Below are positions 7,132-53,826 of a stretch of DNA of 64,000 nucleotides, one piece after another. This DNA comes from Squalus acanthias (Eukaryota). Where the stretch lies: NCBI GenBank assembly GCA_030390025.1, contig CM059432.1, positions 11,284,001 to 11,348,000 of the forward strand. The letters are read 5' to 3'. The notes under the pieces are model-generated. The model saw only the letters and a program-made list of their open reading frames with translations. It was not told the DNA's origin and did not search any database. Every line of letters starts with the position of its first letter. The first letter of the stretch is position 1. A program made the translations under genes and the position numbers.

Positions 7132-7896
7132 GGCCCAGAAATTAAACATTGATGGTTCCCGCGGGGGTAAGGATTCCCCGCGATATCGCACTCCGCGCCT
7201 ACCTTTTTGTTTCGGGCCCACACGAACTTCAGTTTCAGGGCCTCTCCCTGTTGCAACCGTGCAGTGCTTGCGTGTCCCAGAGGCGCAATTAGTTCGTGCG
7301 AGCTCTGGGATCACGTGATTCAGTTAGAGCCAATGGCAGCACACCATCTTTCATTCATAGTTTTGACAGCAAGGGCTGTCAAAGCTATGAATACTACAAG
7401 CCCCCAAAAGAACAGCTAAACCTCAATTAAATTAAAAAAAAGCCATCACATTAATAAAATAACTATAGTTAAATAAATTAACCACTTTAAACAAAAAATT
7501 AAATTTTTGAAAAAATTTAAAATCTTTTTAAAAGTTATAAAAATAAACTTACCTTTCTTTAAAGTCTCTAAAAAAGATAAACCTGTTGAAAAAAATTTAA
7601 AGTAACACTTAATTAACTACTTACCTTGTTAAAAGGGGGTCCTACGCCTGCTTTCTTTATGTATAAAATCTTCACCACTTACCTGCGCGTTCAAACCTGA
7701 AAAAAAAACTAAGTGTGCTGCGTGCGCGCAACCTGTAGCGCGCACGCGGTTCACTTAGGAACCGCCCCCTTTGCAATACACGAAGTGCCGGTTTCCCGCG
7801 CATGCGCGGTGCATGCAGGAAACCGGCAATTTGGGACCTAATACGCGAGAGTACACACAGTGCGTACTCTCGCGTATTAGGTCTAATTTTCGGGCC
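7132..7896. mobile_element. Non-autonomous DNA transposon (Harbinger-like MITE), type A copy 1
   Basis: TIRs ggcccagaaatt / aattttcgggcc, TSD ATT (7129-7131, 7897-7899). Colinear with 36986-37728. Confidence 0.85.
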
Positions 7897-8236
7897 ATTG
7901 TAACCTATGTAGAGACACAAATCATGGATGAATGAAAGTATTTTACTTCACTGTATTCCCTACACATCCATTTTCTCATTATTAAAATGACACATGATTA
8001 AATTCCTTTATTTAAAAAAAAAAGATTTAATTTTAAAAAGTCTGACTTAATTGAGACATGTCTGCTAAACTACACTGTCACAAAACAGCAGGATAAAGGT
8101 TTAACGGTGAATTCTCTATCTTGGCTGTATTATCAGGCGAGGTACAGCGTGGAGGTTTTCTGGTCGTCCAGTTGGGTGGAGGGAAAATTGGTGGATGAAC
8201 TGCATCCACTGGTTCCCCCTTTTCTACCTTGCTAAA

Positions 8237-9440
8237 TTAGCAGGGTAGATAAAGGGAAACTAGTGGATGTAGTGTATTTGGATTTTCAAAAAGCATTCGA
8301 TACGGTGCCACACAAGAGGTTATTGCACAAAATTAGGGCTCATGGGATTGGAGATAATATATTAGCATGGATTGAGGATTGGTTAACGGACAGAAAACAG
8401 AGTAGGAATAAAAGGGTCATTTTTGGGTTCGCTGGCTGTAACTCATGGAGTGCTGCAAGGATCAGTGCTTGGGCCTCGGCTATTTACAATCTATATTAAA
8501 GACTTAGATGAGGGGACTAAGTGCAATGTATTCAAGTTTGCTGTCAATACAAAGCTAGGTGAGAAAGTAAGTTGTGAGGAGGACTCAAAGAGGTAGCAAA
8601 GGGACCGGTTAAGTGAGTGGGCAAGAATATGGCAGATGGAATATAATGTGGAGCAATGTGACGTTACCCACTTTGGCAGGAAAAATAGAAAAGCAGAATA
8701 TTTTTTAGAAGGTGAGAGACTAGGAAATGTTGGTATTCAGAGGGACCTGGGTGTCCTTGTACATGAATCACAGAAAATTAACATGCAGGTACAGCAAGCA
8801 ATTAGGAAAGCAAATGCTTTGTTAGCCTTTATTACAAAAGGATTGAGTGTAAGAGTAAAGACGTCTTACTGCAATTATATAGGGCCTTAGTGAGACCACA
8901 CCTGGTACTGTGTACAGTTTTGATCTCCTTACCTAAGGAAGGATATACTTGCCTTGGAGGGAGTGCAACGAAGGTTCACCAGACTGATTCCTGGGATGGG
9001 GGAATTGTCCTGTGAGGAGACTAGGCCTATATTCTCTAGCATTTAGAAGAATGAGAGATGATATTGAAACATACAAACTTCTTACAGGGCTTGACATAGT
9101 AGATGCTGGGAGGATGTTTCCCCTGGCTGCGGAGTCTAGAACTAGGGGGGTCACAGTCTCCGAATAAGGGGTCGGCTATTTAGGACTGAGATGAGGAGAA
9201 GTTTATTCACTCAAAGGTTTGTGAAACTTTGGAATTCTCTACCCCAGAGGGCTGTGGATGCTCAGTCGTTGAGTATATTCAAGACAGAGATAGATAGATT
9301 TTTGGATACTAAGGGAATCGAGGGATATGTGAATAGTGCGGGAAGCTGGAGTTGAGGTAAAAGATCAGTCATGATCTTATTGAATGGCAGAGCAGGCTCG
9401 AAAGGCTGAATGGCCTGCTCCTGCTCCTATTATGTTCTTA
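8237..9440 (+). mobile_element. CR1 LINE, 5'-truncated, degenerate
   Basis: ORFs 8263-8499 and 8636-8890 carry CR1 RT motifs. CR1 3' tail at ~9440. Confidence 0.93.
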
Positions 9441-9614
9441 TTAGTCCAGCAGCAGGTTTGCAACAATGTACCAAGGACCATGACTTGACTGCCAATTACC
9501 AAATTGGTCTTCCTGTCTTTGTGCTAAAGAAACTGTTTATTTCATGAATGTTGATTGAGTGCATATTATTTACACTATTATACAAAAATAATCTATGATT
9601 TGCATATTGGGCTA

Positions 9615-10155
9615 AAGGGAGTGGTGTCCAAATTTGTAGACAATACTAAAATAGGAGGCATAATAACTAATTATAAAGACCAAAGGAAGCTGCAAAGGGA
9701 TATTGATGAGATGGTGGAATGAGCAAAATGTTGCAGATGGGATTCAAAATCATTAGAACAATGCAGATTACGAGACAATATGATAGAAGTTTTAAAATTA
9801 TGAAAGAATGGGACTGGGTCGATAGAAGCAGACTGTTTCCAGTAGTTGAGGGGTCTAGAACAAGGGGTCATAGTTTCCCAGGCTTCTGCCAATAGTGTTC
9901 AAAAACCAGCTGCTTGGTGCATTGCAGATGCAGACGGCTCACCATTTTACAAATGTTTTTACAAAAAGAGTTGTGCGAGGCTTTAGAATGCAATACTGGA
10001 ATTAGTGATTAAAACAGGCCATGTCAATTTTTAAGAACTGGTTAGGTAGGTGGTTGAAGGAAAGGTGATTAAAGGGATATGGGAACAGAGTGGATACATG
10101 AGATTACGACTACACGGAGTGGTTGGGCTGAATGACTTGTTTGTTATTTCTATGT
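9615..10155 (+). mobile_element. Old degenerate CR1 3' fragment
   Basis: Decayed 'ccaaatttgtagacaatactaaaatagg' (KFADDTK region), 'tctagaacaaggggtcatag' and a CR1-like tail. Confidence 0.7.
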
Positions 10156-11994: not shown

Positions 11995-12004
11995 CTTTTA
12001 TTTA

Positions 12005-12558: not shown

Positions 12559-12644
12559 CACTTTTATTTAGATGCATAAGACTTTGTATTTGTTTCAGGA
12601 CTCAGGCCAATGGCTGAGATGGGTATTGGCCAACTTAGAAATCC

Positions 12645-12824: not shown

Positions 12825-14769
12825 TTAGAAATCCAGGTGTCTGGTTGTATTTTTGTATCATTTTGTATCCAGACAAAAAAATCAGACTCAGCAGATTAGA
12901 ATGCAAATCTGATGTTTGAATATTAAATGTAGTGCCGCATACTCATATTACAGCAGGAATCGTAGCTAGCATATATATTTGTTTAAATATTAAATTGCGA
13001 ATCTCAGCTAGATCATCAGACTCAGCACCAAGGAGAGATGAGGTGATGGATAACTCATCGGGAAGGAGAAAAATCAGCGAGGGTTATCACCTCAGTATCG
13101 TACTTGAGTATACTCTACTGGCTGTTTACAGCAGTATTAGCAGACATTATGGACAGATCTCTAGTTGCTTGGTTGCTCTCTCTCTTGGAGCTGTTAACTC
13201 AACATTTAAACTTTACTTCTAACTAAATATTAAAACCTTTTAAAAACTGTTTTCTCACTGTTCCAGTAGAAATGTGGAGAAAAATTGCAAATAAAATATG
13301 TTCAGAAAATGCAACCATGTATTTAAACCTAAATGACAATTTCATTTAATTGCATGCAAATGATTTGTGGTGTAATGTCTGTCGTGTAGCTTTAAAAACT
13401 AAAATGCAGATCTCATGGTCAGTCAGATTACACTAAGGAAGGGTGATGGTGTGTTTGGTGTGAAAATGGGGTAAGAGTACAAATCTCCACTGAGAATTTG
13501 GAAAGAACTTCAGAAGAGATTTTTTTTTAGAGGCACTGAAGTATGTGCTTTTGATTGGTTCATGGAAAATAATTGCCCATTGCAGGTAGATGAATACACC
13601 TGTGTTCTTCACATTCCACATACATGAATAAATAAGCCTTTTCATTATAATAGAGGCAAGCAGTTCATTACCTTCATTGTGACCCTCTGTTTAGAATGAG
13701 TTTTTTGTGAAAGCCAAGAAATATTAAACTGATTTGCATCTTTCATCTTCAAATTCTCAGCAACAGAATTTCACATAATAAGTTTTTAATTAAATTCAGA
13801 ACTTTTATTCAGATCCTCACTCCAAACTTAAATAATGTGAATCTTTCTGGAACATCTCCCTGTTATGAGTCATTTTGTTTTCCTGGTTATGTTTAAGTTC
13901 TGAGAGAGACAGAAATACAATTATGTTACCATTTAGATTATATTAGGAAATTTGAAGACTGTTTCAAGTCACTCACGCCTGAATCCTTCCACACTTGCCA
14001 GTTTTGATCTCGGATATATGTGTTTGGCTGTCTTATGCGTACTTTCCCACTGTTGTTGAGAGATCAGATAGCATATAAATTGCATTATTTTTCTTTTAAA
14101 GTTATCTCTGAAAAGATTGAAGAATTTGTGCTTTACCTCATTATTAATGTTTTATACCTGAAAAAAAAAATTCTGATTACTTTTACTGCTCAAGGTGATT
14201 TCCTGGGATGGGGAGGGGAGTGCTTCGCAATAATTCACAGAAGTAGACTGTGTGTGTAGGCAGCAAGATCCGCACGTCCTGTGAATGGCCAATCTTACTA
14301 ATAATTCTGGGAATTATATGCACAGAGACATGCAGGAGCTGCAGCCTACAATTTTGTTGAAACTCCGCTGAGAATGATGGCTGTGGGGACCCCATGAAAT
14401 CAAGATTTGAAATTCAAATAGATACAGGAGTCTAACTGAATATACATTGGAGGCATTTTGAACACAGAGAATGGTCTTTAATAAGCAAATTGTAATTTTT
14501 TTTCTTTATTTTGTTAGAGACCTCATTTCAAGTAGTAAATTCTTAGCTTAGTAAAGAAACCAAGGTGACTGTCAAAAGGATTTTTGAAAAATGTTTTGAG
14601 CAATTTCATTGGTTCACCACCTGTATTGATTATTGTTGTCTGTCCTTGGTAGTAATTCATTTTAAGTTTAGCTGTCCACTTTTCCTGTGTTCACATTGAG
14701 TATTTCTTCAGTTATGATTTGTCACTGTTTTATGAAAATGAAATTTGAGCTAATTTAGTGCATAGACTT

Positions 14770-16400
14770 TGTGAAGGAATAAGCCATATTTCAGAAAAAT
14801 ACACCATCCTATGAACAGAATTCTGATTTAATTAATACATGATAAACTGGGTTTAAAAATCTAAAAGCCTCAACGACACAGGCTGCAAACAGAACACAGG
14901 CTTTTGAGATAAGATCAGTTGATAACACAAAAGTTGTAAACACCACAAGCTTTTGAAATGGGAATTGGTTGTAAATACTGAGACAAAGCCCCTATTGAAG
15001 CAAACCATTGGTGCTTCCAGAATGTCTACAGTTTGGAACCAAAACAATAGCAATGCCCAAGTAAAGTGTTAAAAGCTAACACGTCGAAAAGAAACACAGA
15101 ACATTAAAAAATACAAGTGCCTTTGGGAAAAAATGACATCAAGTAAAAGAAATACCTGCCGTAAAATAGTTTTATGTTAAACTTAGAACAAGGAGACATG
15201 ATTCTTAATACAACCAATTGAAGTAAATAAGAAATGCAAAGAACACCCTAGATGAAGTGTTTTTGATTTACATATTGTAAAAGGTACAAACAGAACACTT
15301 TGAAGATATAATATCAATGGATGCATCAAGCAATCACATTGTGTTTGTATTGAAAATGGAACAGTTGGGAGACGCGAGGTCTGGAATGCAAACAGCTAAA
15401 GTGGTTTAAGAATTCAAAGAGGAACCTCCTAAGAATCGCATCAAATAGATACAACTGTGAAATTGTTTTTTATGATAAGCTATGAACACCTAAAGGTAGA
15501 GACAGAATTCTAAAAGCTAACAGCTGAATTAACAGTAAGAATAGAAAGAAGTCAACAGAGGTATGGCTAGAGATAATTAGCTTACATCAGCAGAAAACTT
15601 CAAAGAATATACCACTAAAAAAAGGTATAAAAATAGAGCTTTTCAGATAGAGAGTCAGAAGTCGCTGGGAAGGGGCAGAGCGATTCTCGCCTTCAGAACC
15701 ACTCTGTAGGCCTACAACTCTGAGTCTCGGGTAATCAAGGTATTTGATTTTGGTGGATATTCTGGATTAAGAAATAAGTAGAAGTGTGGAAATGTAACGA
15801 AGTTAAGATTTGAGAATAAGGATCTCTGATAAGAAATGTAAGCTATTTGTATTTTGAATGGTTAAAGTTGCGATTGTCATACCAGCTGTTAACTAAATGT
15901 CAGTTCTTTAATAAATTTATATATTTTTTAAATTGTCTCAGAGTAATTTCTGTATCAATCTCGCGAACTCAATTTCTGTACACTCTTCTGAGAGGAGTTG
16001 CAGAATTCTGGGGGGTTTTCCGGACCCTCAAAATATCCGGAAGGTGACATTCTAGTTAAACTTGTTAAAAGTGCTATCCGGAGGACGGTAACATCTTCAG
16101 GCCGTTCCTTTCCTTTAGGGAGAGATAGTCTGAACCTTTAGACCCAATTAAGCGTCTTGTAGGATTCGGCTATCTCTAACTTTAGTTGAAGGGGAACGTC
16201 TGGGAAATACGCCTGATCTGGGGTAGCCCGAAAAGGGCTAGGACTTGTAATTATCCCTTCAACTTTGCATATAGACAAATATGATGGGGAAATGTGTGCT
16301 ACAGAGTGAAGATCTAGAATTTAGAAATTGAGCTATCAAGATACCAAAATGATACATAATAGCAAAAGGAGGCACTGAGCACAATTCTAAGCAGAATAAT
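14770..16400 (+). mobile_element. Probable endogenous retrovirus remnant: 5' LTR (to 16002), PBS-like sequence and leader
   Basis: TATAAAA 15626-15632, AATAAA 15910-15915, LTR-like end TTGCA at 16002. TGGGGGGTTTTCCGGA at 16009-16024 matches the tRNA-Pro PBS at 12/16. Structured leader follows. The left boundary is uncertain (14770 or 15276). Confidence 0.55.
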
Positions 16401-16422
16401 GTTACTGCTGAAGATCGTTGGT

Positions 16423-17355
16423 TCATAGGATCATAGAATGGTTACAGCACAGAAGGAGGCCATTCGGCTCGTCGAGCCCGTGCCGGCTCTCTGCAAGAGC
16501 ACTTCAGCTAGTCCCGCTCCCCTGCCCTTTCCCTGCAAATTTTTTTCTTTCAGGTACTTATCCAATTCCCTTTTGAAAGCCACGATTGAATCTGCCTCCA
16601 CCACCCTTTCAGGCAGTGCATTCCAGATCATAACCACTCGCTGCGTAAAAACGTTTTTCCTCATGTCGCCTTTGGTTCTTCTGCCAATCACCTTAAATCT
16701 GTGTCCTCTGGTTCTCGACCCTTCCGCCAATGGGAACAGTTTCTCTCTATCTACTCTGTCTAGACCCCTCATGATTCTGAACACCTCTATCAAATCTTCT
16801 CTCAATCTTCTCTGCTCTGAGGAGAACAACCCCAGTTTCTCTAGTCTATCCATGTAACTGAAGTCCCTCATCCCTGGAACCATTCTTGTAAATCTTTTCT
16901 GCACCCTCTCTAAGGCCTTCACATCCTTACTAAAGTGCGGTGCCCAGAATTGGACACAATACTCCAGTTGAGGCCAAACCAGTGTTTTATAAAGCCCAGG
17001 ATCCCGTATGCTTTTTTAACTGCTTTCTAAACCTGCCCTGCCACCTTCAACAATTTGTGCACATATACCTCCAGATCTCTCTGTTCCTGCACCCCCTTTA
17101 AAATTATATCCTTTAGTTTATATTGCCTCTCCTCGTTTTTCCTACCAAAATGTATCACGTCGCACTTTCCTGCGTCAAATTTCATCTGCCACGTGTCCAT
17201 CCATTTCACCAGCCTGTCTGTGTCTTGAAGTCTATCACTATCCTCCTCACTGTTCACTATACTTCCAAGTTTTGTGTCATCTGCAAATTTTGAAATTGTG
17301 CCCTGTACACTCAAGTCCAAGTCATTAATATATATCAAGAAAAGCAGTGGTCCGA
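16423..17355 (-). mobile_element. CR1 LINE, 5'-truncated with an internal deletion
   Basis: ORFs 17027-17377 (IYINDL, FADDTK) and 16431-16922. Confidence 0.93.
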
Positions 17356-17529
17356 GTATTTCTTTTAACCTTGTCATCTAATTAAAAGCTATTTCATATA
17401 GTAACAATGTAAATCAATATTGAATGGAGGTATCCCAATAATTTTGTCTTTAAAGAATTGGTTACAAATTTGCTTAATATTTTTGTGGTAAAGAGAATAT
17501 CCTGAAGCCATCTTAAAACTTAATTAGAC

Positions 17530-17715
17530 TGTGACCATGATTGTGACCCACCACTGGGGTTTTTCACTGGGTCTGTTGTAGACTAATTGATGGAGATTGA
17601 TTACTATGATTAGTCAGCAATCCCATTATCATTGTATCTTGAGACTAGCAGGATGGCAGAAGGCGAACTAGATGGACCGTGATCTTTTTCCGCCTAGCAA
17701 CACCTATGTTCCTAA
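17530..17715 (+). mobile_element. Old CR1-type 3' UTR remnant
   Basis: gaactagatggaccg...cctatgttccta tail pattern. Confidence 0.5.
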
Positions 17716-18305
17716 TTGTTTTTAACAGTGAACCTGATTTGGAATAACCCCACACATCATCTTTTCTCGGCACCAGTATCTCTGGATGAAATGTAATTGG
17801 CTAAATGAACTGTGATTTACCACCATGCAATTTTTTTCCCCCCAAGAGGTGACCAGTGTTACTTGAAAATATTATCCTGCAGAATTTGATTAATGTACAT
17901 TTAAGATTCATGATCTTTAGGTTAAATCAGTAAAACTGATGTGAAAAAGTCACCTTTTATTCATTAATACCAAAAAAACTAAAATGCTGCGTGTTTTACT
18001 TAACAAATTTCTAAATCTGGTATTAAGAACTGGCCCAATAAAAGCCATTTCAGTAGCATAAAAGTTACTCCACTCAAACAGAATTTAAACTCCCATCCTT
18101 GACTTTTTCTGCTGCACAGCTCTCCTTATGTTATTGGTTGCTTCCCCATTATGATATGAGGCTGATGTGTTTCTGGCTTCCACACGATTTAATTTCATTA
18201 ATAAAATTTTTTTAACATGCATGTATGAAAGCAGTGATAATGTACTGAATTTGGTTCAAATAAAAAATTGCTTAAAGATACTGAAACTCGACAGGAAAAC
18301 TGGGA

Positions 18306-18343
18306 AGTTCTGATGAAAGGTCATCGACCTGAAACGTTAACTC
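18306..18343 (+). ncRNA. Minimal type I hammerhead ribozyme motif
   Basis: AGUU-CUGAUGA-A-AGGUC-auc-GACCU-GAAA-CGUU-AACU: intact core, palindromic ACGU stem III, AGUU/AACU stem I. Confidence 0.85.
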
Positions 18344-18407
18344 TCTTTCTCTCTCCACGGATGCTGCCTGGCCTGCTGAGTTTTTCCAGCGTTTTCTGTT
18401 GTTATTT
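18307..18407 (+). mobile_element. 101-bp Penelope-derived insertion with an intact hammerhead motif
   Basis: Perfect 14-bp TSD aggaaaactgggaa (18293-18306, 18408-18421). Confidence 0.9.
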
Positions 18408-19127
18408 AGGAAAACTGGGAACCCTGGCTATATCAAAAGGATAGAGATCGTCATGAATCTAAAATTTTGATCATAAAAGGTGCCACATAGTTTTAACAAT
18501 TCTTAACAGAACATTTGTGTGTCTTTTTTTGTAGTAATTTATTGAAAGTACTGCTGAAAGCACAATTGTTTAAAATTACATTGCAAATTATGGTGCAATG
18601 CCTATCCTCAAAGCTTTCATCCATTATATATTTACCATGGCTGACAATTTTTATTTAATTCATTTTCACTTTATTTAATTCTCTTGCTGGTACTTGTGGT
18701 AACATTTGGAACTCTGTTGTGGGCCTTGGATCACTGCTTTGACAACCAGGAGTTAGGCGTCTTTTACACGTTCTACTCTCACCGGTTAAACCAGAGTTCA
18801 TTCTTGGAAATGGACAGACTGAGTGTTCCCATTCATGCTCATGACTTTTACTTTTACAAACTTTTGGGTCATTGACTTGTTTGGAAAGAATTCAAAGGAA
18901 GATGAATATGAACTCTGTTGGTACTAAACATGGATCCAAATGACTCGACAAGCTGAGTGAGTTCAATAACCTTTTCGTGTTACTACCCTACGTACTTCTG
19001 TTTTTTTGAAATTGAGATAAAATTTGTATTAGGTTTTTATATATTGTAATGGTTTAGTAATGAAGGAGACGTGAGTTAAATATATGAAATTGTGTAGTAA
19101 AATGTTACTATGTAATGTGTGATTGGT

Positions 19128-19282
19128 CTATATATAATCTATATAGACAGAGCAATATCTCTCTATAGATAATCTCTATCTCTGTCTCTATACATATCTC
19201 TCTGTCTCGACAGATATCTCTATAGATATCTCTCTATCTCTCTATCTCTAGATATATATCTATCTATAGATATCTATATATT
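19128..19282. repeat. Low-complexity TA/TC/GA simple repeat
   Basis: Mixed tatc/tctc/taga units. Confidence 0.9.
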
Positions 19283-20417
19283 TTAAAATTTATTGATAGT
19301 TTTTTTTCCTGTTGGGAGTGCGGTCAGGTTGGGGAGTTTTTAAAATTACTTTTCTATTGTATCCACAGGCAAGGCATGAGCAGAAAGACTTGTAAAACAA
19401 GAATGTGAAAATTGGTTGCTCTAATCTCTCCTGTGCTAATTTCTAGCATTGTAAAGTTGTGTGTCCAGTGCAGATTTGGAGCCTTCGGGGTGACCAAACA
19501 GCGCCACATAGTGGCTGAGGATGTCCAATAACATCATGACCAACAGTGCCAACATTGCGTTTTTCCATTATGAAATGTTGATACAGTCCCCACCAATTAC
19601 ACCGTCTCTGCTTATCCCGGATGGCTGCCTATATCGGGCAAATGGTGCTAACCATTTGCCATGACCACAGGCGTCACTTCCAAAGCGGCGCTTAAACCAT
19701 ATTAAGCGGGCCAGCTGTTTCGGGCAGTTCCGAACTGCTGTTGCGCCTCATGATTACCTGTCACTAAGTCCTAACCGCCCCTTGGCCTCAAACACCTGCC
19801 ACTGCTGAGAGCCCTTCTTGCCAGCTTGAACATAGGAATTTATAATGGAAAAAGTTGACGGGTAGTGGGCACAGTCAGTATATTTTAATAAATTATAGGT
19901 TTATCGGTATAGCATAATGTAAAAACTTTATGCGGTTTGTCAGGTCAGTGCTGGAAAAAGATGGTGTATTAATCTGGGAGTCCAATGGCTGGGGAGAGTC
20001 AGAGGTGAGGGGGTTGTGAGGTCAAAGGTAGGGGGTCAAGATGTTATGAAGTCAGAGGTCATATCCCATGACTCTGCACACTGAGTCGAGTTTAAGTAGC
20101 ATGTTTGGGTCAAGTAGCTTAGAGGACGGGGGCTAATTGGACCAGGGCAGAGGGAGGACTGTTACGATGGAGGTCAGAGGCAGAAGATACAGTGGGATAG
20201 GGTAGGGTAAAGTAGAGCCACCTTTAAGGCTGGGGGGAATAGAGAAGGGTTAGAGTGTTAGGTTGGCGAGTGAAAAGATAGAGTTACAGTTGGTGGGGGG
20301 GTGGGTGGCAAAGCAGGATTATAGGCCAGAGAGATACTAAAGGTAGAGCAGGATTGAAAGCTAGGGTGAAGATGGTAGGTACAGGAGGGAAGAGGAAGAA
20401 TAGCACAGGGTTAGCGA

Positions 20418-20988
20418 ATCATAGAAATGTACGGTACAGAAGGAGGTCATTCGGCCCATTGTATGATGGCCGAAAAAGAAGTATTCAGCCTAATCCCACT
20501 TTCCAGCTCTTGGTCTGTAGCCCTGTAGGTTAAGGCACTTCAAGTGTATATCCAAGTACTTTTTAAATGCGATGAGAGTTTCTGCCTCTATTGCCCTTTC
20601 AGGCAGTGAGTTCCAGACCCCCACCACCCTCTGGGTGAAAAAAGTTCTCCTCAACTTCCCTCTAATCCTTCTTCCAATTACTTTAAATCTATGCCGCCTA
20701 GTTATTGACCTCTCTGCTAAGGGAAATAGGTCCATATCCACTCTATCTAGGCCCCTCATTATTTTATACACCTCAATTAGGTCTCCTCTCCGCCTCCTCT
20801 GTTCCAAAGAAAACAACCCCAGCCTATCCAGTCTTTCCTCATAGTTAAAATTCTCCAGTCCTGGCAACATCCTTGTAAATCTCCTCTGTACCCTCTCTGG
20901 TGTACTTGCATCTTTCCTGTAATGTGGTGACCAGAACTGTACACATTACTCTAGCTGTGGTCTAACTAGTGTTTTGTACAATTCAAGC
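20418..20988 (-). mobile_element. CR1 3' fragment
   Basis: ORF 20490-20870 is a CR1 ORF2 C-terminus. Confidence 0.9.
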
Positions 20989-21049
20989 AGGGTTGGTGGC
21001 TGAGGGATGGGGAAGCTGGAGTCACATTAGAGGCTGGGGAGGGGCTGGT

Positions 21050-24000
21050 AGAACATAACATAACAATATAAGAAATCGGAGCAGTAGGTCATTTGGCCCT
21101 TCGAGCCAGCTCCGCCATTCAATAAGTTCATGGCTGAACTTCTACATCAATTCCACTTACCCGCCCTATCCCCATATCCCTTGATTCACTTAGCGCCCAA
21201 AACACTCTCGATCTCAGTCTTGAATATACTCAATGACTGAGCATCCACAGCTCTCTGGGGTAGAGAATTCCAAAGATTCACAACCCTCTGAGTGAAGAAA
21301 TTTCTCCATCTCAGTCCTAAATGGCTGATTCCCTTATCCTGAGACTATGATCCCTAGTTATAGTCTCTTCAGCCAGGGGAAACAGCCTCTCGGCATCTAC
21401 CCTGTCAAGCCCTCTAGGAGCTTTATATGTTTCAATGAGATCACCTCTCATTCTTCTAATTGCCAGAGAATATAGGCCCATTCTACTCAATCTCTTCTCA
21501 TAGGACAGCCCTCTCATCCCAGGAATCAATCTAGTTAACCTTCGTTGCACCCTCTCCAAGGCAAGTATATCCTTCCTTTGGTAAGGAGACCAAAACTGTG
21601 CACAGTGCTCCAGGTGTGGTCTCACTAAAGCCCTATATAATTACAGCAAGACTTCCTTACTCTTATACTCCAATCTCCTTGCAACAAAGGCTAACATACC
21701 ATTTGCCTTCCTAATTGCTTGCTGTACCTGCATGTTAATTTTGTGATTTGTGTACAAGGACCCCCAAATTCCTCTGTATACCAACATTTACTAGTCTCTC
21801 ATCTTTTAAAAAAAATATTCTGCTTTTGCATTCTTTCTATAGATATGTGAAGAGAAAAAGATTAGTGAAATCAAGCATAGGTCCCTTGCAGTCAGAATCA
21901 GGGGAACTTATAATGGGGAACAAAGAAATGTCAGACCAATTAAATATATATTTTGGTTCTGTCTTCACAAAGGAGGACACAAATAACCTCCCAGAGATGT
22001 TGGGGAACATAGGGTCTGATGAAAGGGAGGAACTGAAAGAAATCAGTATTTGCAGGGAAATGGTATTAGGGAAATTGAAGGCCGATAAATCCCCAGGGCC
22101 TGATAATCTACATCCTAGGGTACTTAAGGAAGTGGCCCTAGAAATAGTAGATGCATTGCTGATCATCATCCAACATTCGATGGAATCTGGAACAGTACCC
22201 ATGGATTGGAGGGTAGCTAATATTACCCCACTATTCAAAAAGGGTGGTAGAGAGAAAACGGGGAATTACAGACCGGTAAGCCTGACATCGGTAGTGGGGA
22301 AAATGCTAGGGTCCATTATAAAAGATGTAATAGCTGAGCACATGGAAAACAGTGACAGGATTGGACAAAGTCAACATGGATTTACAAAAGGTAAATCATG
22401 CTTGACTAATCTACTGGAATTTTTTGAGGATGCAACTAGTAAAATAGATACGGGAGAACCAGTGGATGTGGTGTATTTGGACTTCCAAAAGGCTTTTAAT
22501 AAGGTCCCGCATAAGAGATTAGCGTGTAAAGTTAAGACACATGGGATTGGGGGCAAGGTATTGACTTGGATAGAGAACTGGTTGGCAGACAGAAAGCAAA
22601 GAGTTGGAATAAACGGGTCTTTTTCCGAGTGGCAAGCAGTGACTAGTGGGGTACCGCAGGGATCGGTCCTTGGACCCCAGCTATTCACAATATATATTAA
22701 TGATCTAGACAAGGGAACTAGATGTAATATCTCCAAGTTTGCAGATGAGACAAAACTGGGTGGGCGTGTGTGCTGCGAGGAGGATGCCGAGAAACTCCAG
22801 GATGATTTGGACAGGTTGGGTGATTGGGCAGAAGCGTGGCAGATGCAATATAACGTGGATAAATGCGAGGTTATCCACTTTGGTGTCAAAAACAGAAAGG
22901 CAGATTATTATCTGAATGGCAATAGATTGGGAGAAGGGGAAGTGCAACGAGACCTGGGTGTCCTTGTGCACCAGTCGCTGAAGGTAAGCATGCAGGTGCA
23001 GCAGGCGGTTAAGAAGGCAAATGGTATGTTGGCCTTCAAAGCGAGAGGATTTGAGTACAGGAACAAGGATGTCTTGCTGCAGTTGTACAGGGCCTTGGTG
23101 AGACCACACCTTGAGTACTGTGTGCAGTTTTGGTCGCCTTATCTGAGGAAGGATGTTCTTGCCATGGAAGGAGTTCAGCGAAGATTCACAAGGCTGATAC
23201 CTGGGATGGCAGGAATGACGTATGAGGAGAGATTGGGTCGATTGGGCTTATACTCGCTGGAGTTTGGAAGAATGAGAGGGGATCTCATTGAAACTTATAA
23301 AATTCTGACAGGACAGGACAAACTAGATGCAGGAAGGATGTTCCCGATGGTCGGGGAGTCCAGAACCAGGGGTCACAGTCTAAGGATAAGGGGTAAGCCA
23401 ATTAGGACTGAGATGAGGAGGAATTTCTTCACCCAGAGAGTGGTGAACCTGTGGAATTCTCTGCCACAGAAAGCAGCAGAGGCCAATTCATTAAATAGAT
23501 TCAAGAAGGAGTTGGATATATTTCTTAAGGCTAAAGGGATCAAGGGATATGGGGAAAAAGCAGGGACAGGGTACTGAATTTGGATGATCAGCCATGATCG
23601 CATTGAATGGTGGAGCAGGCTAGAGGGGCCGAATGGCCGACTCCTGCTCCTATCTTCTATGATTCTACCAAAGTGGATAATTTCTCACTTACCCACATAT
23701 GCTCCGTTTGCCACCACCTTGTCCAATCACTTAATCAGTCTATATTCCTTTTGCAGCCTCTTTGCGTTCTCCTCACACTTACTTTCCCACCTAGCTTTGT
23801 ATTGTCAGCAAACTTGGATATATTACACTTGGTCCCCTCATCTAAGTCATTGATATAGATTGTAAATAGCTGAAGCCCAAGCACTGATCCTTATGGCACT
23901 CCACGAGTTGCAGCCTGCCATCCTGAAAATGACCCATTTATTTCTGCTTTCTGTCTGTTAACCAATCTTCAATCCATGCTAATATATTACCCCCAATCCC

Positions 24001-27105: not shown

Positions 27106-27120
27106 TATGTTAGAGATTAT

Positions 27121-35457: not shown

Positions 35458-36750
35458 TTGAATGAAGGAATACAGAGTTGTATCTCCAAGTTTGCAGATG
35501 ACACCAAGTTCGGAGGCATAGTAAGTTGTGTAGATGGGAGCAGGAAGTTACAAAGGCTCATAGACAGACTGTGTGAGTCTGCAAAACTATGGCAGATAGA
35601 TTTTAATGCGGAGAAGTGTGAGGTCATTCACTTTGGATCTGAGAAAGACAAATCGGAATATTTTCTTAATGATGAGAGACTAGGATCTGTGGAGGAGCCA
35701 AGGGATTTAGGTGTTTATGTACACAAATCACTAAAAGTTAGTGTACAGGTACAAAAAAAATCAAAAAGACTAATGGACTGTTGACCTTTATCTCAAGGGG
35801 GTTATAATTCAAAAGTGAGGAAGTGATGCTTCAGCTGTGCAGAGCGTTGGTCAGACCCCATCTGGTGTACTGCATTCAGCTTTGGGCAGCGAATGTCAGG
35901 AAAGATATATTGGGCCAGAATTTGCGGTCCCGATGACGGCGTACGTTCAGCGTACGCCGTCGTAAGCGTTCTGAAAGGCCCCACAAGTTCAGTGTTTCCA
36001 CATGCGCGAAAACCCGGAACTTGCGATCTGTCAAGGTACTCCTTGACAGATCTACCGAACCAACTAGAAATTCTATTTGCCCAACTGCTGTCCAGCAAAT
36101 GCCCACGAAACTCTTACGCCTGGTAAAAGTGGGCATAGGGCCTGCTTTCACCAGCATAAGGGTTAATATAAATCTTAAATTAAAAATGTAAAAATAAAAA
36201 ATGATGCACAAACACTTAAAATTAATTTATGCAAATTTTGACACGGATTAAAATGTTTAAAATTATTTTTCAAAAAATTAAATTTTTATTGTATTTGCTG
36301 TATTGAAGGGAGTTTTAATTAAATTTGAAAATGATAATTATTTTTATTGCAGTTGCCTAAATTGTTTATATATTTCGGGATTCCATTGGGGTTTATGGGG
36401 ATTCCGTTCATAAATGGAATCCTCCTTTCTCATTGGAGGACCTGGCCCACGTGATCCCAGGGACGCTTTTGAACCGCCTGCGTCCCTGGGATCCGTGGGC
36501 CTTTACGCAGGCGTACGCCTGGAAGCCCAGGACCTGAACTCTCCATAACGGTGGAGCCAGGAGGTAAGTTCGGAAATATTTCGCAGGTCGGAGGCGTACT
36601 CGAGGTACGCCTCCGACTGCAAATTCAGGGCCATTGGCTTTGGAAGGGGTACAGCTCAGATTCACCAGAATTATATCGGGGCATAAAGGGTTAAATTATG
36701 AGGACAGGTTGCATAAGCTTGGCTTGTATTCACATCAGTTTAGAAGGCTG
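35458..36750 (+). mobile_element. CR1 fragment split by the MITE at 35912-36632
   Basis: ORF 35458-35784 (FADDTK). The host resumes at 36633 (attggctttggaagggg...). Confidence 0.9.
35912..36632. mobile_element. Harbinger-like MITE, type B copy 1
   Basis: TIRs gggccagaatttgcgg / ctgcaaattcagggcc. The TSD ATT is supported by the interrupted CR1, which rejoins as gatatattggctttgga. Confidence 0.9.
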
Positions 36751-36985: not shown

Positions 36986-37728
36986 GGCCCAGAAATTGAT
37001 CTCGCTCTGTTCCCGCGGGGGTAAGGCTTTCCCGCGATCTCTCACCTCGCTTGTGCTTTTTCAGATCCAGCTCGCACGAACTTCATGTTCTAGAGATCAG
37101 CTGGGCAGTGCTTGCGTATCCCAGCGGCGTAGTGAATTCGTGCGAACTGTGGGATCACGTGACTCAGTTAGAGCCAATGGCAGCACACCATCTTCCATTC
37201 ATAAGTTTCACAGCAGGCTGTGAAATCTATGAATCTTACACCCCCCCAAAATAACAGCTAAACCTCAATTAAATTTAAAAAAAAACCCATCACATTAATA
37301 AAATAAGTATAGTTAATTAAATTAACCATTTTAAATAAAAAATTACATTTTTGAAAAATTTTTAAATCTTTTAAAAAGTTATAAAAATAAACTTACCTGT
37401 CTTTAAAGTCTCTAAAAAAGATATACCTGTTAAAAAAAATTCAAAAAAATACTTAATTCACTACTTACCTTCTTAAAAGCGGGTCTTACTCCTCCTTTTT
37501 ACATTTCTAAAATCTTCAGTACTTACCTGCGCGTCCAAAGCATGAAGTGCACAGCGTGCGCGCAGCCTGTAGCGCGCACGCGATGCACCGAGGACCCGCC
37601 CCCTTTTCAGAAGAGCAATTGCCGGTTTTCAGCGCATGCGCAGGGCATGCAGAAAACCGGCAATTGGAGTGGGAATACGTGAGAGTACGCAGTGCGTACT
37701 CTCGCGTCCCGGGATCAATTTTCGGCCC
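36986..37728. mobile_element. Harbinger-like MITE, type A copy 2
   Basis: TIRs ggcccagaaattgatc / gatcaattttcggccc, TSD TAT. Confidence 0.88.
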
Positions 37729-41706: not shown

Positions 41707-44540
41707 ACATAGAAGATAGGAGCAGGAGTAGGCCATTCGGCCCCTCGAGCCTGCTCCGCCATTCGATGAGATCATGGCTGATCATCCAAACTCAGTACCC
41801 TGTACCTGCCTTCTCCCCATATCCCTTGATACCTTTAGCTTTAAGAAATATATCTAACTCATTCTTGAATATATTTAATGACTTGGCCTCAACTACCTTC
41901 TGTGGTAGAGAATTCCACAGGTTCACCACTCTCTGGGTGAAGAAATTCTTCCTCATTTCTGTCCTAAATGGCTTACCTGTTATCCTTAGATTATGACCCC
42001 TGGTTCTGGACTCTCCGACCATCGGGAACATTCTTCCTGCATCTAGTTTGTCCAGACCTGTCAGAATTTTATATGTTTCGATGAGATCCCCTCTCATTCT
42101 TCTATACTCCAGCGAGTATAAGCCCAATCGACCCAATCTCTCCTCATATGTTATTCCTGCCATCCCAGGTATCAGCCTTGTGAATCTTCGCTGAACTCCT
42201 TCCATGGCAAGAACATCCTTCCTCAGATAAGGCGACCAAAACTGCACACAGTACTCAAGGTGTGGTCTCACCAAGGCCCTGTACAACTGCAGCAGGACAT
42301 CCCTGTTCCTATACTCAAACCCTTTCGCTATGAAGGCCAACATACCATTTGCCTTCTTCACCGCCTGCTGCACCTGCATGCTTACCTTCAGCGACTGGTG
42401 CACAAGGACACCCAGGTCTCGTTGCACTTCCCCTTCTCCCAATCTATTGCCATTCAGATAATAGTCTGCCTTTCTGTTTTTGACACCAAAGTGGATAACC
42501 TCGCATTTATCCACGTTATATTGCATCTGCCACGCTTCTGCCCACTCACCCAACCTGTCCAAATCATCCTGGAGTTTCTCAGTATCCTCCTCGGAGCACA
42601 CACGCCCACCCAGCTTTGTGTCATCTGCAAACTTGGAGATATTACATTTAGTTCCCTTATCCAGATCATTAATGTATATTGTGAATAGCTGGGGTCCAAG
42701 GACCGAACCCTGCGGTACCCCACTAGTCACTGCCTGCCACTCGGAAAAAGACCCATTAATTCATACTCTCTGCTTTCTGTCCGCCAACCAGTTCTCTATC
42801 CAAGTCAATACCTTGCCCCCAATCCCATGTGCCTTAACTTTACACGCTAATCTCTTATGCGGGACCTTATCGAAAGCCTTTTGAAAGTCCAAATACACCA
42901 CATCTACTGGTTCTCCCTTATCTATTTTCCCAGTTACATCCTCAAAAAATTCCAGTAGATTAGTCAAGCACGATTTACCTTTTGTAAATCCATGTTGACT
43001 TTGTCCGATCCTGTCACTGTTTTTCAAGTGCTCAGCTATTACATCCTTTATAATGGACTCTAGCATTTTCCCCACTACCGATGTCAGGCTTACCGGTCTG
43101 TAATTCCCCGCTTTCTCTCTACCACCCTTTTTGAATAGTGGGGTAACATTAGCTACCCTCCAGTCCATGGGTACAGTTCCAGATTCCATCGAATGTTGGA
43201 AGATGATCAGCAATGCATCTACTATTTCTAGGGCCACTTCCTTAAGTACCCTAGGATGTAGATTATCAGGCCCTGGGGATTTATCGGCCTTCAATCCCAT
43301 CAATTTCCCTAACACCATTTCCCTGCAAATACTGATTTCTTTCAGTTCCTCCCTTTCATCAGACCGTATGTTCTCCAACATCTCTGGGAGGTTATTTGTG
43401 TCCTCCTTTGTGAAGACAGAACCAAAATATGCATTTAATTGGTCTGCCATTTCTTTGTTCCCCATTATAACTTCCCCCGCTTCTGACTGCAAGGGACCTA
43501 CACTTGATTTCACTAATCTTTTTCTCTTCACATATCTATAAAAGCTCTTACAGTCAATTTTTATGTTCCCTGCAAGCTTACTTTCATATTCTATTTTCCC
43601 CTTCTTAATTAATCCCTTTGTCCTCCTTTGTTGAATCCTAAACTGCTCCAAATCCTCAGGGTTACCGCTTTTTCTGGCCAATTTATATGCCCTCTCCTTG
43701 GATCTTATGCTATCCCTAATTTCCCTTGTTAGCCACGGTTGAGCCACCCTTTTTGTTTTATTCTTATGCCACACTGGGATGAACAAATTCTGTAGTTCAT
43801 CCATGCAGTCTTTGAATGTTTGCCATTGCCTATCCACAGTCAACCCCTTGAGTGACATTCCCCAATCAATCCTACCCAATTCACGCCTCATACCATCGTA
43901 GTTTCCTTTATTTAAATTCAGGACCCTAGTCTCTGATTCAACTACTTCACTCTCCATCCTCATGAAGAATTCTATCATATTATGATCACTCTGACCCAAG
44001 GGGCCTCGTACAACAAGATTGCTAATTAATCCTTTCTCGTTACATAATACCCAGTCTAAGATGGCCTGATCTCTGGTTGGTTCCTTGACATATTGTTCCA
44101 GAAAACCATCCCGTAAACATTCTAGGAATTCCTCCACAGTATTTTTACTAATTTGGTTAGCCCAATCTATATGTAAATTAAAGTCACCCATGATGACTGC
44201 TGTGCCCTTACTGCATGCTTCTCTAATTTCCCTTTTCATGCCGTCCCCAACCTCCGTATTACTGTTTGGAGGTCTATATACCACTCCCACTAACGTTTTC
44301 TGCCCCTTGTTATTTCTCAGTTCTACCCATACAGATTCCGCATCATCAGAGCTAATATCCTTCCTTTCAATTGTGTTAATCCCCTCTTTAACCAGCAATG
44401 CTACCCCACCTCCCTTTCTTTTTTGCCTATCTTTCCTAAATATTGAATACCCCTGGATGTTGAGTTCCCAGCCTTGGCCACCCTGGAGCCATGTTTCTGT
44501 AATCCCAATCAAATCGTATTCATTTACCTCTAGTTGCAAA
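41707..44540 (-). mobile_element. Young-subfamily CR1: near-complete ORF2 with a single premature stop
   Basis: ORFs 42761-44539 and 41792-42730 are in the same frame and separated by one TGA. APE motifs (ITETWL, YRPP, GDFN, SDH) and FADD are intact. Confidence 0.97.
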
Positions 44541-45029
44541 TGCTATCACAGGAATTTTATTAATCAAATTTAGGCTGTCATGGTTTCTTATTTTCAGGCA
44601 GGCATCATCGCTAAGTGATAACAGGCATTCCCCCACAGGATGAGGGGAAAAAGTGTAGGACTGATAATTCTATTAAATAGATGTGGTGCCGTTCTCTTGC
44701 TGGGACAACCCCACCTCCTACTCTCATTCCATTGTCTCAAGTTGCTGGAGAGCCAGACAAGTGGAAATGTGCTGAATTCCAGGTTGGTGAACATTCTGCA
44801 GTGGGGCAACCCATATCTGGAGATCCAGAGGCAGTTTGGGTGTAAACTGTACTGGCCCATAGTTGTAGAGTGGTGGGCTGTAACTCATCCATAGGCTAAT
44901 TTATGGATACCACTGCTAGAAAGAACCTCTATTATACTGTACTTAAAATGCAAAATACAGTGCAGGCCTAAATGCATTTTATATTACATAAATTACATAG
45001 AAACTTTCTTTTGTAAAGAAAGAAGCAGC

Positions 45030-51800: not shown

Positions 51801-51920
51801 TTTAGCAGATTTTAACTACATTTTATGATTGTTGTCTTCTTACCAGACATTGGACATCTTTTAATAAGGCACATGCTCACAACACACCTGTTTCAATATC
51901 TGTAAAGTAATTTGCTAATT

Positions 51921-52570
51921 GATATTCTGATCCCTATGGGTGGGTACGCGCTGTGTACCCACCCGTAGGGACATCGGAAATGCCGGTTTCAGGCATGCGC
52001 TGAAAACCGGCATTTCTGATCTGTCAAGAATGCTCTTGACAGATCCTCCGGCTGCCCTGGAGAAGGGCCTCTGCGGGTGGATAGTTCCGCTTTTTGGAGA
52101 CCCTCCGCCCGCAGAAAAGCCTTACAACTCTTACGCCTGGTATCATTTAAAAATACTTTAAAAAAAGGTAAGTTTATTTTTAGCCCTGTAAAAAAAAACT
52201 AATTTTTTTCAAAAAATAAAATTTTTGTTTAAAATACTTAATTTATTATAATTTCAAGTCATTTTAAAAATGTGATTTAAAAAAAAAAAATTATTTAAAG
52301 TTTTACTATTTTTTTCATTGATCTCCATTCATATATTTGACAGGTCTTCCTGTCAAATGTATGAAGGGAGATTCCCTTCTGTGATTGGCTCCCCATGGCC
52401 CACGTGATCCCAGGGACGCTGCGAACTACATGCGCCCCTGGGATACGTGGGCCCTGCGCACTTGGAGTTTGGAGAGGCCCAGGAGCGGAAGTGTGTGCGT
52501 CCCAGGAGCCCTCAGGTAAGGGCGCAGATTTCTCTGCCCGCGGGAGGCCTGCAATCGGAAAATACGGGCC
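51921..52570. mobile_element. Harbinger-like MITE, type B copy 2 (left TIR eroded)
   Basis: Right TIR cggaaaatacgggcc followed by aat. Same internal motif order as the 35912 and 53120 copies. Confidence 0.8.
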
Positions 52571-53119
52571 AATAACTTTTAACACTCTCTGCATCGGAAA
52601 TCGCAGGTGTGAAACAATATTCTACATCACCAAACTTGTTGGAGCCCTGATGTGTTGTACCACAGTGCCCAGCTGCTTCATGTCCTTTTGACTGCTTTTT
52701 CAATGTTATTCATATCACTATTGATATCGACAGGGAGTTCTTTTATTTTTACATTTATTTGAGTTGGGAAACACTTGTTTGCTGCTGTGTCGGCCCTCTA
52801 CCATAATTGTGAAAATGGTTCATCAAATCCTACAACAACTTCTATGTCTGACTATCTTCCTAAAAACATGAAAGGAGGAAGAGATGGGCTCCTGATGGTT
52901 CAATGGGTAAATGGACTAGGTTTTGTGGTGGTGAGACAGAGACAGGAAGATTCTAGGTTTTAAAAAATGGTCCGTACTGAGTAAGCTGATCTGAAATAGG
53001 AGGCAGTGGGAGTGCAACAATTTCCCAGCATAAATCACTACCGTTTTATCTTTTCAACAAGAGAAATCATTTAAAACTAGCAGGCTACTGCTGCAAATGG
53101 GAGAGCTGAGTAAAATAAT

Positions 53120-53826
53120 GGGCCGTATTTTGCGACCCCTACGGGTGCGTACGAGGTGTGCACGCGCCCGTAGGGGCTGCACAAGTTCTGGGTTTAGGCA
53201 TGCGAAGCTAATGTACTAAAACCCAGAACTTGCGATCTGTCAAGAATCCTCTTGACAGATCCTCTGCATCCCCAGGAGATTGGCCTCTGCGGGTGGAGAG
53301 TTGCGCTATTTGCCCAACTTCCGACCGCTGAATGCCTGTGAAATTCTTACGCCTGGTAAAAGCAGGCGTAAGGCCTGCTTTTACCAGCATAAGAGTTTAA
53401 AAAAATAGAAAAATAAAATTTTATCACTCATTTATACATTAAAAACCCTGTCCAATTAGGTAAGTTTATTTTTAGCCCTGTTAAAACATATTAAAAAATA
53501 AATTTTTGTTTACAATATTTAATTAAATGGCATTTTAATTAATTTTAAATATGTAATTTAAAAAATTTATTTCATGTGTTCGTGTATTTTTTAAGTGATC
53601 CCCATTCATACTTATGGGAGTTCCGTACGTACGAAACTCCCATAAGTATGAATGGGGATTCCCTTCTTTTATTGGTTGGGCCGGCCCACGTGATCCCAGG
53701 GGCGCTTGCCAGAGAGGCCCAGGACCGCAAGCCTCCATATCTCCTGGGCCACCAGGTAAATGCGTAGATTTTTTACAGGTCGTAGGCATCCGCCCGCGGG
53801 AAGCCTCCGATTGCAAATTTTGGGCC
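53120..53826. mobile_element. Harbinger-like MITE, type B copy 3
   Basis: TIRs gggccgtattttgcga / ttgcaaattttgggcc, flanks AAT/ATT. Confidence 0.85.

What the first reader, a model, noticed from the sequence alone, without database searches (positions are those of the whole stretch)
7132..53826. Five diverged Harbinger-like MITEs share one ordered architecture of palindromes with compensatory changes
Seen: the elements are at 7132-7896, 35912-36632, 36986-37728, ~51921-52570 and 53120-53826. Type A copies are the reverse orientation of type B: cacgtgatccca/tgggatcacgtg is shared by all five, and ggtaagtttatttt/aaaataaacttacc by four. All read TIR - GTAC-armed hairpin - hairpin enclosing catgcg - AT-rich core - central hairpin - CCAAT/CACGTG - TIR. 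Primary sequence differs but pairing is kept: gatctgtcaagG/Ccttgacagatc (36025-36052) vs gatctgtcaagA/Tcttgacagatc (52018-52045, 53234-53261); tttGacagc/gctgtCaaa (~7350) vs tttCacagc/gctgtGaaa (~37208); subterminal stems gacggcgtacg/cgtacgccgtc (35935-35961), ccctacgggtgcgt/acgcgcccgtaggg (~53137) and tacgcgagagtac/gtactctcgcgta (~7842). Established: 3-bp TSDs, GG-start short TIRs and subterminal palindromic binding sites for a Myb/SANT partner are PIF/Harbinger traits. Inference: structure rather than sequence is being maintained, either by selection (cruciform or RNA fold) or by repeated arm-to-arm conversion. I do not know of a description of this architecture.
Basis: partly seen in the sequence, partly recalled or inferred. 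Interest (0 to 1): 0.8.

Follow-up and report, generated by a model that had tools for sequence, protein, structure and literature searches.

The report
Harbinger-type MITEs with co-changing DNA palindromes
Five related, gene-less jumping-DNA elements carry a row of short mirror-image stretches whose two halves change together far beyond chance, likely because the DNA symmetry itself is kept up in the copies that spread, not because they encode a folded RNA.

Summary
The observation mostly holds. The five 650-765-bp elements are one abundant, non-coding family: alignable in opposite orientations, with 14-16-bp GG-start TIRs. A 3-bp duplication is proven by paralogous empty sites for one copy. 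Hairpins are strongly enriched, and their arms co-change: 15 of 52 stem pairs, against means of 2-8 in tree-aware simulation.

Corrections: only three palindromes are shared broadly, one left TIR is decayed, and the duplications are AWT-like, not the TWA of PIF/Harbinger proper. The outer target flank (AAACAC) matches zebrafish Harbinger3_DR, so these are PHIS-superfamily MITEs of unresolved group.

Nothing points to RNA: both strands fold alike, there is no G.T preference, and transversion double changes dominate. Most likely the mirrored changes arise by arm-to-arm copying and persist because dyad sites help docking of the Myb/SANT helper or host factors. Selection on cruciform or hairpin DNA is not excluded.

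No transposase lies in the window, and Dfam/Repbase could not be searched. The scan has already noted this family and this covariation several times, in this genome and in other shark-like genomes.

The parts
7132..7896 (-). E1, MITE copy (type A), TIR 13/16, TSD ATT/ATT
7835..7883 (-). E1 subterminal GTAC palindrome (H1), 24-bp arms including a mirrored outer extension
7786..7828 (-). E1 palindrome enclosing GCATGCG (H2)
7720..7747 (-). E1 GC-rich palindrome found only in E1 and E3
7353..7392 (-). E1 central palindrome (Hc)
35912..36632 (+). E2, MITE copy (type B) inserted in a CR1 LINE RT fragment; TIR 13/16, TSD ATT/ATT proven by paralogous empty sites
35935..35961 (+). E2 left GTAC palindrome (H1)
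35984..36023 (+). E2 H2 (two one-sided mismatches)
36025..36052 (+). E2 gatctgtcaag palindrome (H3), G-C closing pair
36453..36493 (+). E2 palindrome following the invariant CACGTG (H5)
36587..36617 (+). E2 right subterminal GTAC palindrome, mirroring H1; not present in the other four
36986..37728 (-). E3, MITE copy (type A), TIR 13/16, TSD TAT/TAT
37677..37707 (-). E3 H1
37616..37666 (-). E3 H2
37197..37234 (-). E3 central palindrome, C-G where E1 and E4 have G-C
51921..52570 (+). E4, MITE copy (type B), left TIR decayed, internal deletion of about 75 nt; right junction bridged by an orthologous contig of organism D
51931..52045 (+). E4 H1 (51931-51971), H2 (51973-52020) and H3 (52018-52045) in tandem
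52321..52444 (+). E4 central palindrome (52321-52372), ATTGG and CACGTG motifs, H5 (52407-52444)
53120..53826 (+). E5, MITE copy (type B), TIR 11/16, TSD AAT/ATT; left junction bridged by an orthologous contig of organism D
53136..53261 (+). E5 H1 (53136-53176), H2 (53182-53232) and H3 (53234-53261)
53353..53387 (+). E5 perfect 15-bp-arm palindrome (H4); degenerate in E1, E2 and E3, deleted in E4
53598..53659 (+). E5 central 62-bp palindrome with no loop (30 of 31 pairs)

Best explanation
The five elements are diverged subfamilies of one abundant, non-coding family with TIRs and 3-bp target duplications, likely moved in trans by a Harbinger-type (PHIS) transposase and Myb/SANT helper; their palindromes co-change, likely because copying one arm from the other writes mirrored changes and copies with intact dyad protein-docking sites are predicted to spread better. 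SHOWN: TIRs, a 3-bp TSD, abundance, shared old insertions, palindrome enrichment, covariation, and no strand or G.T preference. INFERRED: (1) mobilisation by an AWT-targeting autonomous partner; (2) template switching, perhaps during gap repair after excision, as the source of one-step double changes; (3) selection among master copies for two-fold symmetric sites. The recurrent GGCGTAMG / AGGTAAG motifs and the four TACG/CGTA half-sites of H1, spaced 10 bp apart, would be read by a helper whose specificity differs between subfamilies; the other dyads and CCAAT/CACGTG would be read by host factors. After insertion the copies would decay by ordinary one-sided change.
For: 3-bp TSD: E2 flanks with one ATT align without gaps to 4 paralogous CR1 copies (a fifth, weaker hit has 2 gaps), and with two ATT they need 3-nt gaps. 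Target flank: loose ends of 115-176 contigs per run in 3 runs give the consensus AAACAC before ATT (agreement only 0.39-0.40), the same outer flank as the Harbinger3_DR target quoted in PMC3016246. Covariation: 28 of 86 pairs against 13.6 +/- 2.5 shuffled (0 of 500) and 2-10 when slid; 15 of 52 pairs and 163 of 183 Watson-Crick cells against simulated means of 1.9-7.9 and 95-133. DNA-level signature: at least 23 double changes, 14 transversions and 9 transitions; stem mismatches 10 G.T and 13 A.C; both strands fold alike. Template-switch-like events: a mirrored outer extension of H1 in E1 and a loop-less 62-bp palindrome in E5; such patterns are attributed to template switching in PMC8794818 (passages) and PMC3820800 (abstract). 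Repeated motifs: GGCGTAMG 8 of 8 window hits inside the elements (0.7 expected; palindromic hits count twice); AGGTAAG 10 of 20 inside, at about four distinct homologous positions. H1 alternates invariant and co-varying positions. The Myb-like helper binds terminal or subterminal DNA and diverges strongly between families (PMC13668399, PMC9179366, passages).
Against: No transposase or Myb gene was found in the window, so partner and binding are untested. One helper with a 6-8-bp site (PMC9921582, passage) cannot account for six palindromes of unrelated sequence. At variable positions of H1 the pairing is almost always kept, which needs either a very high arm-copying rate or selection on pairing itself. 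PMC8794818 calls the role of template switching in maintaining short stems 'less clear'. I saw no clear loop inversion, the most diagnostic trace (by eye). In mPing, internal enhancing regions share no specific sequence (PMC9921582). Only five copies, and no subfamily consensi.
Confidence: 0.5

Rival explanations
1. Pairing itself is selected at the DNA level: the palindromes extrude as cruciforms or fold in single-stranded DNA beside the AT-rich core, and this helps excision, gap repair or copy gain of the MITE.
For: Sequence turns over while 89% of cells stay Watson-Crick (163 of 183). Several unrelated stems co-change. In E1 and E3 a different palindrome sits near the place of H3. DNA folding z-scores are -2 to -14 on both strands.
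Against: Stems are gained and lost between subfamilies (H3, H4, H5). Invariant bases inside H1 and unpaired invariant motifs (ATTGG, CACGTG) suggest sequence reading. I know of no need for internal hairpins in DDE cut-and-paste transposition (own knowledge).
Confidence: 0.25
2. Neutral upkeep: once a palindrome exists, template switching keeps re-symmetrising it and the stems do nothing.
For: Transversion-rich double changes and mirrored insertions; quasi-palindrome correction is an established mutation type (PMC3820800, abstract).
Against: One-sided mismatches accumulate in the inserted copies (48 non-Watson-Crick cells of 355), so repair in place does not outpace point mutation. H1, H2 and Hc keep their order across 55-70% identity.
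Confidence: 0.12
3. The dyads and the CCAAT/CACGTG/GCATGCG motifs are inherited promoter ends of diverged autonomous parents, conserved for expression of transposase and helper, and simply carried by the MITEs.
For: ATTGG and CACGTGATCCCA are invariant in all five and partly unpaired. E1 and E3 differ by 6.7% in the core but by 16-19% (non-CpG) in the ends, as if ends were exchanged or evolve with partners. AGGTAAG, a splice-donor consensus (own knowledge), lies on one strand only.
Against: This does not by itself explain pairing at variable positions. The homologous AT core suggests a shared non-coding ancestor. No parent was available to compare.
Confidence: 0.08
4. A structured RNA (or pre-miRNA-like hairpins) transcribed from the element is under selection.
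For: RNA folding z-scores reach -13; RNAalifold covariation term -2.96, with 25 of 55 pairs showing double changes; the E5 central hairpin has pre-miRNA size.
Against: No strand preference; no G.U excess; double changes are not transition-enriched (14 transversions, 9 transitions); only local stems; no GNRA or UNCG loops closing the shared stems (by eye); 0 Rfam matches at gathering score; a DNA transposon moves without an RNA step.
Confidence: 0.05

Closest known systems
Harbinger3_DR of zebrafish (= NuwaI-2_DRer, PMC4482050 Table S5 row; target quoted in PMC3016246)
   Same: Short GG(G)-start TIR, 3-bp TSD, and the outer target flank AAACAC (weak consensus); a Myb-like helper that binds subterminal DNA is the presumed partner.
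   Different: The central triplet is AWT-like instead of CWG; these copies are non-coding; no covarying palindrome array was seen in the passages read.
Pangu group of PHIS (PMC4482050, section 6 and Table S3 rows)
   Same: ANT/AWT TSD, TIR of 11-40 bp starting GG.
   Different: No vertebrate among its 15 listed genomes; E3 has TAT; no transposase was available to place these elements.
Harbinger-N12A_XT, Xenopus tropicalis MITE, 342 bp (PMC12676858, abstract and passages; its Fig. S1 not seen)
   Same: Vertebrate Harbinger MITE with TIRs and internal repeats 'of palindromic nature', present in thousands of copies.
   Different: Half the length; no covariation analysis in the passages read; sequence relationship untested.
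mPing / Tourist-like MITEs (PMC9921582, passages)
   Same: Non-autonomous PIF/Harbinger MITE in which internal sequence modulates transposition.
   Different: Canonical PIF/Harbinger group; its internal effects were linked to GC content and nucleosomes; the words palindrome and hairpin do not occur in that text.

Membership tests
MITE (non-autonomous TIR element) | Terminal inverted repeats | tested here: met
   11-13 of 16 terminal bases match in 4 of 5 copies; E4 left end decayed
MITE (non-autonomous TIR element) | Target-site duplication | tested here: met
   3-bp ATT proven by paralogous CR1 empty sites for E2; matching triplets in E1 and E3; one mismatch in E5
MITE (non-autonomous TIR element) | Short, no coding capacity | tested here: met
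   650-765 bp; the only listed frame >=130 aa touching a copy (53535-53930) has no Pfam match
MITE (non-autonomous TIR element) | High copy number | tested here: met
   13,458-24,906 contigs laid per run; summed depth 1e4-4e6 on element parts against 14-39 on the spacer (not a copy count)
PHIS superfamily (Harbinger sensu Repbase) | 3-bp TSD and short G-start TIR | tested here: met
PHIS superfamily (Harbinger sensu Repbase) | Cognate DDE transposase plus Myb/SANT gene in an autonomous element with the same ends | not testable with these tools
   No genome held; no further copy or longer relative in the window; an AWT autonomous element in this genome is reported only in unchecked note e1-9127395
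PIF/Harbinger group in the narrow sense (Han 2015) | TWA TSD | tested here: not met
   0 of 4 testable copies
NuwaI (Harbinger3_DR group) | CWG TSD | tested here: not met
   0 of 4
NuwaI (Harbinger3_DR group) | TIR starting GGG; AAACAC outer target flank | tested here: inconclusive
   GGG at one end of E2, E3 and E5, GGC elsewhere; flank consensus matches but agreement is 0.4
Pangu | ANT/AWT TSD | tested here: inconclusive
   Met in E1, E2 and E5 (both triplets ANT), not in E3 (TAT)
Pangu | Transposase in the Pangu clade | not testable with these tools
   no transposase available
Structured non-coding RNA | Covariation of base pairs | tested here: met
Structured non-coding RNA | Strand-specific fold with G.U tolerance and transition-biased compensation | tested here: not met
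Structured non-coding RNA | Match to a described family | tested here: not met
   0 Rfam hits at gathering score in 64 kb
An already annotated Dfam/Repbase family | Match to a curated consensus | not testable with these tools

The most novel reading that the evidence does not exclude
A vertebrate cut-and-paste MITE lineage whose spread depends on a folded DNA architecture: a row of cruciform or single-strand hairpins around an AT-rich unwinding core, kept by selection on pairing while the sequence turns over. It would be the DNA counterpart of a structured RNA, serving as the cis-element for transposon amplification.
Probability: 0.25. Interest if true: 0.72.

Novelty: new variant of a known kind. 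Interest (0 to 1): 0.38.

Why it matters
How MITEs out-copy their autonomous parents is an open question, and internal sequence is known to matter (mPing, PMC9921582). A very abundant family whose internal palindromes covary between subfamilies offers a natural experiment to separate protein-dyad recognition, DNA secondary structure and template-switch mutation. It also warns RNA-structure screens that DNA transposon palindromes can give strong covariation with no RNA behind it. If the host is a shark (from unchecked earlier notes; not tested here), it bears on the statement that Harbinger is absent from elephant shark and that other cartilaginous fish still need testing (PMC9179366, passages). 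The kind of element is ordinary, palindromic Harbinger MITEs are mentioned in print (PMC12676858), and the scan has seen this family repeatedly, which keeps the score moderate.

Tried and rejected
No whole genome is held, so no genome-wide copies, subfamily consensi or autonomous partner could be collected.

Collection scans for more copies: 0 hits in metagenome contigs with a 23-mer. The H3 pattern gave 1 metagenome and 6 GTDB loci; none resembles the element outside the palindrome (best nhmmer E 0.19), so they were rejected as chance.

A profile of the five copies found no sixth copy in the window.

The look-up of sequencing runs: no RNA holder listed; this says nothing about expression.

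Laying contigs covered only the right end of E4, the spacer and the left end of E5. Its variant table was cut (102 rows not shown), so it gave no covariation data. The organism B contig reaches only 25 letters into each element, below the tool's bridging rule, so only organism D is counted.

Rfam: nothing.

Literature: Sinzelle 2008 is not held. Searches for a described helper-binding palindrome or for this architecture listed no description; two searches returned 0 papers. PMC5753468 and PMC11601247 (passages) gave nothing useful. This covers only the open library, not Repbase Reports, Dfam or subscription journals; the supplements of PMC12676858 were not seen.

Recombination between subfamilies was considered: H2 and Hc group E4 with E1/E3, while H1 groups it with E5. 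The tree ((E1,E3),E4,(E2,E5)) explains this without recombination.
Full report
WHAT IS THERE. The five stretches are present at the given coordinates. I call them E1 (7132-7896), E2 (35912-36632), E3 (36986-37728), E4 (about 51921-52570) and E5 (53120-53826). The window is repeat-rich eukaryotic DNA with many RT-bearing LINE fragments, CR1-like by my reading, and one Gypsy-type LTR element. No genome is held. Earlier, unchecked scan notes call it shark-like; I did not test that. E1 and E3 are 80% identical and lie opposite to E2, E4 and E5. All five align end to end in one orientation, with segment identities between types mostly 0.4-0.7. The tree is ((E1,E3),E4,(E2,E5)). A profile finds no sixth copy in the window.

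ENDS AND TARGET. Four copies have imperfect 14-16-bp TIRs starting GG(G/C)C (11-13 of 16 matches); the left end of E4 is decayed (5 of 16). Flanking triplets are ATT/ATT (E1, E2), TAT/TAT (E3) and AAT/ATT (E5). E2 interrupts a CR1 reverse-transcriptase fragment. With one ATT the two flanks align gap-free to 4 other CR1 copies of the window (a fifth, weaker hit has 2 gaps) and read in frame; with two ATT all 4 listed alignments need 3 gap positions. The duplication is therefore 3 bp. In Han et al. 2015 (PMC4482050; passages, section 6 and rows of supplement 1) PIF/Harbinger proper has TWA, NuwaI (including Harbinger3_DR) has CWG, and Pangu has ANT/AWT. Contigs that leave the E5 left end (169, 115 and 176 in runs X1, X5 and X6) have a loose-end consensus ending AAACAC before ATT, at agreement of only 0.39-0.40. 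That is the outer flank of the Harbinger3_DR target AAACACCWGGTCTTT quoted in PMC3016246 (passage). The elements therefore behave like PHIS MITEs with a Harbinger3_DR-like outer target and a Pangu-like centre. Without a transposase the group cannot be assigned.

ABUNDANCE AND AGE. On 52315-53392, 13,458-24,906 contigs per run were laid from organisms A (two runs), B and D. Summed depth is about 1e4 to 4e6 on element sequence and 14-39 on most of the spacer (the tool warns this is no copy count). A contig of organism D spans 52540-53154 with 33 differences and 12 gaps and reaches 31 and 35 letters into E4 and E5, so both insertions predate that split. The organism B contig reaches only 25 letters and is suggestive only. 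CpG observed/expected is 0.8-1.14 in the elements against 0.42 in the window.

PALINDROMES. 24 of 43 hairpin rows in the window (some overlap) fall in the 5.6% covered by the elements. Each element has 5-9 hairpins against about 1 in block-wise dinucleotide shuffles. Shared by all: H1 (subterminal, GTAC core) and H2 (loop with GCATGCG). The central Hc is clear in four copies and degenerate in E2. H3 is confined to E2, E4 and E5, while E1 and E3 have a different GC-rich palindrome slightly further in. H4 is perfect in E5, degenerate in E1-E3 and deleted in E4. H5, after the invariant CACGTG, is whole in E2 and E4 only. 'One ordered architecture' is therefore true for a core of three stems.

COVARIATION. 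With stems defined from E4 alone on a sequence-only alignment, 28 of 86 pairs show a change on both sides, against 13.6 +/- 2.5 in shuffles (0 of 500) and 2-10 with slid partners (G.U counted as a pair, some columns probably misaligned). The same excess appears with each copy as reference: 27-46 compensated cells against 3-15 when slid. A curated ungapped set gives 19 of 85 pairs and at least 23 double changes; 5 of these may be one replaced block in E5 and 1 may be double CpG decay. To allow for relatedness I simulated independent sites on the tree (18 settings, 400 runs each) for 52 pairs from H1, H2, Hc and H5. Observed were 15 covarying pairs and 163 of 183 Watson-Crick cells; simulated means were 1.9-7.9 and 95-133. 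Fifteen was reached in at most 4 of 400 runs, only when divergence was set above the observed level, and 163 was never reached. The co-change is real.

DNA OR RNA. Folding is equally strong on both strands with RNA or DNA parameters. Stem mismatches are 10 G.T, 13 A.C and 25 other. Double changes are 14 transversions to 9 transitions, close to the unpaired background of 1,389 to 759, whereas RNA stems passing through G.U would favour transitions (own knowledge). The mismatches are probably post-insertion decay, so that part of the test is weak. Rfam gives nothing. E1 has a mirrored outer extension of H1 and E5 a 62-bp palindrome without loop, patterns that template switching makes in one step (PMC8794818, passages; PMC3820800, abstract).

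WHY THE STEMS PERSIST. Inserted copies collect one-sided mismatches, so neutral repair in place looks insufficient; something acts in the lineage of master copies. Signs of sequence reading: H1 alternates invariant and co-varying bases, with TACG half-sites 10 bp apart on each arm. GGCGTAMG occurs 8 times in the window, all in E2, E4 and E5 (0.7 expected). AGGTAAG occurs 10 of 20 times in the elements, always on one strand, at about four homologous positions. ATTGG and CACGTGATCCCA are invariant. Harbinger's Myb-like helper binds terminal or subterminal DNA and differs greatly between families (PMC13668399, PMC9392472, PMC9179366; passages), so dyad sites would shift on both arms as partners change. 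Against this, one 6-8-bp reader cannot cover six unrelated stems, mPing's internal enhancers share no motif (PMC9921582, passages), and I saw no loop inversion. I give 0.5 to copying plus dyad selection, 0.25 to selection on DNA structure, 0.12 to neutral upkeep, 0.08 to inherited promoter ends and 0.05 to RNA.

KNOWN OR NEW. Palindromic internal repeats are mentioned for the Xenopus MITE Harbinger-N12A_XT (PMC12676858, abstract and passages; figure not seen). Eight searches of the open library listed no account of covarying palindrome arrays in a Harbinger MITE. Dfam, Repbase and subscription journals were out of reach, and Sinzelle 2008 was seen only as cited. The scan itself has noted the same family, covariation and target several times. 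Those notes are not independent support, but they show this is a genome-wide feature rather than a peculiarity of this window. Verdict: a real and moderately surprising variant of a known kind of element, with a testable but unresolved mechanism. Interest 0.38.

Noticed in passing
window 54313-57909 (+): Gypsy-type LTR retrotransposon with both LTRs (54313-54534, 57672-57909; 91.6% identical including a 16-nt indel), 4-bp ATAC duplication, RT/RNase H and integrase frames, GC about 0.6; gag-protease region shortened and pol in two frames.
   Followed up: partly
E1 7548/7620/7678, E3 37392/37464/37522, E2 36562, E4 52166/52514, E5 53458: AGGTAAG, a match to the 5' splice-site consensus, occurs 10 times in the elements, all on the same element strand. 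It could be a helper-binding repeat or U1-binding sites; unexplained.
   Followed up: partly
E1 versus E3: The AT-rich core differs by 6.7% but the two GC-rich ends by 16-19% at non-CpG sites, and the two TIRs of each copy vary together. This suggests faster evolution or exchange of ends.
   Followed up: partly
   Followed up: no
H3 (36025, 52018, 53234) and Hc (7353, 52321): Both palindromes contain TGACAG/CTGTCA in opposite polarity; recalled as a TALE-homeodomain-type site, not tested.
   Followed up: no
window 52315-53392, table 1: Variant places are strand-skewed in run X1 (T>C 16 against A>G 7, C>T 12 against G>A 2, G>C 10 against C>G 1); the table was cut, so this is unexplained.
   Followed up: no
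window 52693: Both organism A runs read C where the window has T, while B and D agree with the window: an allele or an assembly difference.
   Followed up: no
window 21739-23577 (+) and 41792-44542 (-): Young CR1-like LINE copies, 95% alike over 1.6 kb, with long open RT frames.
   Followed up: no
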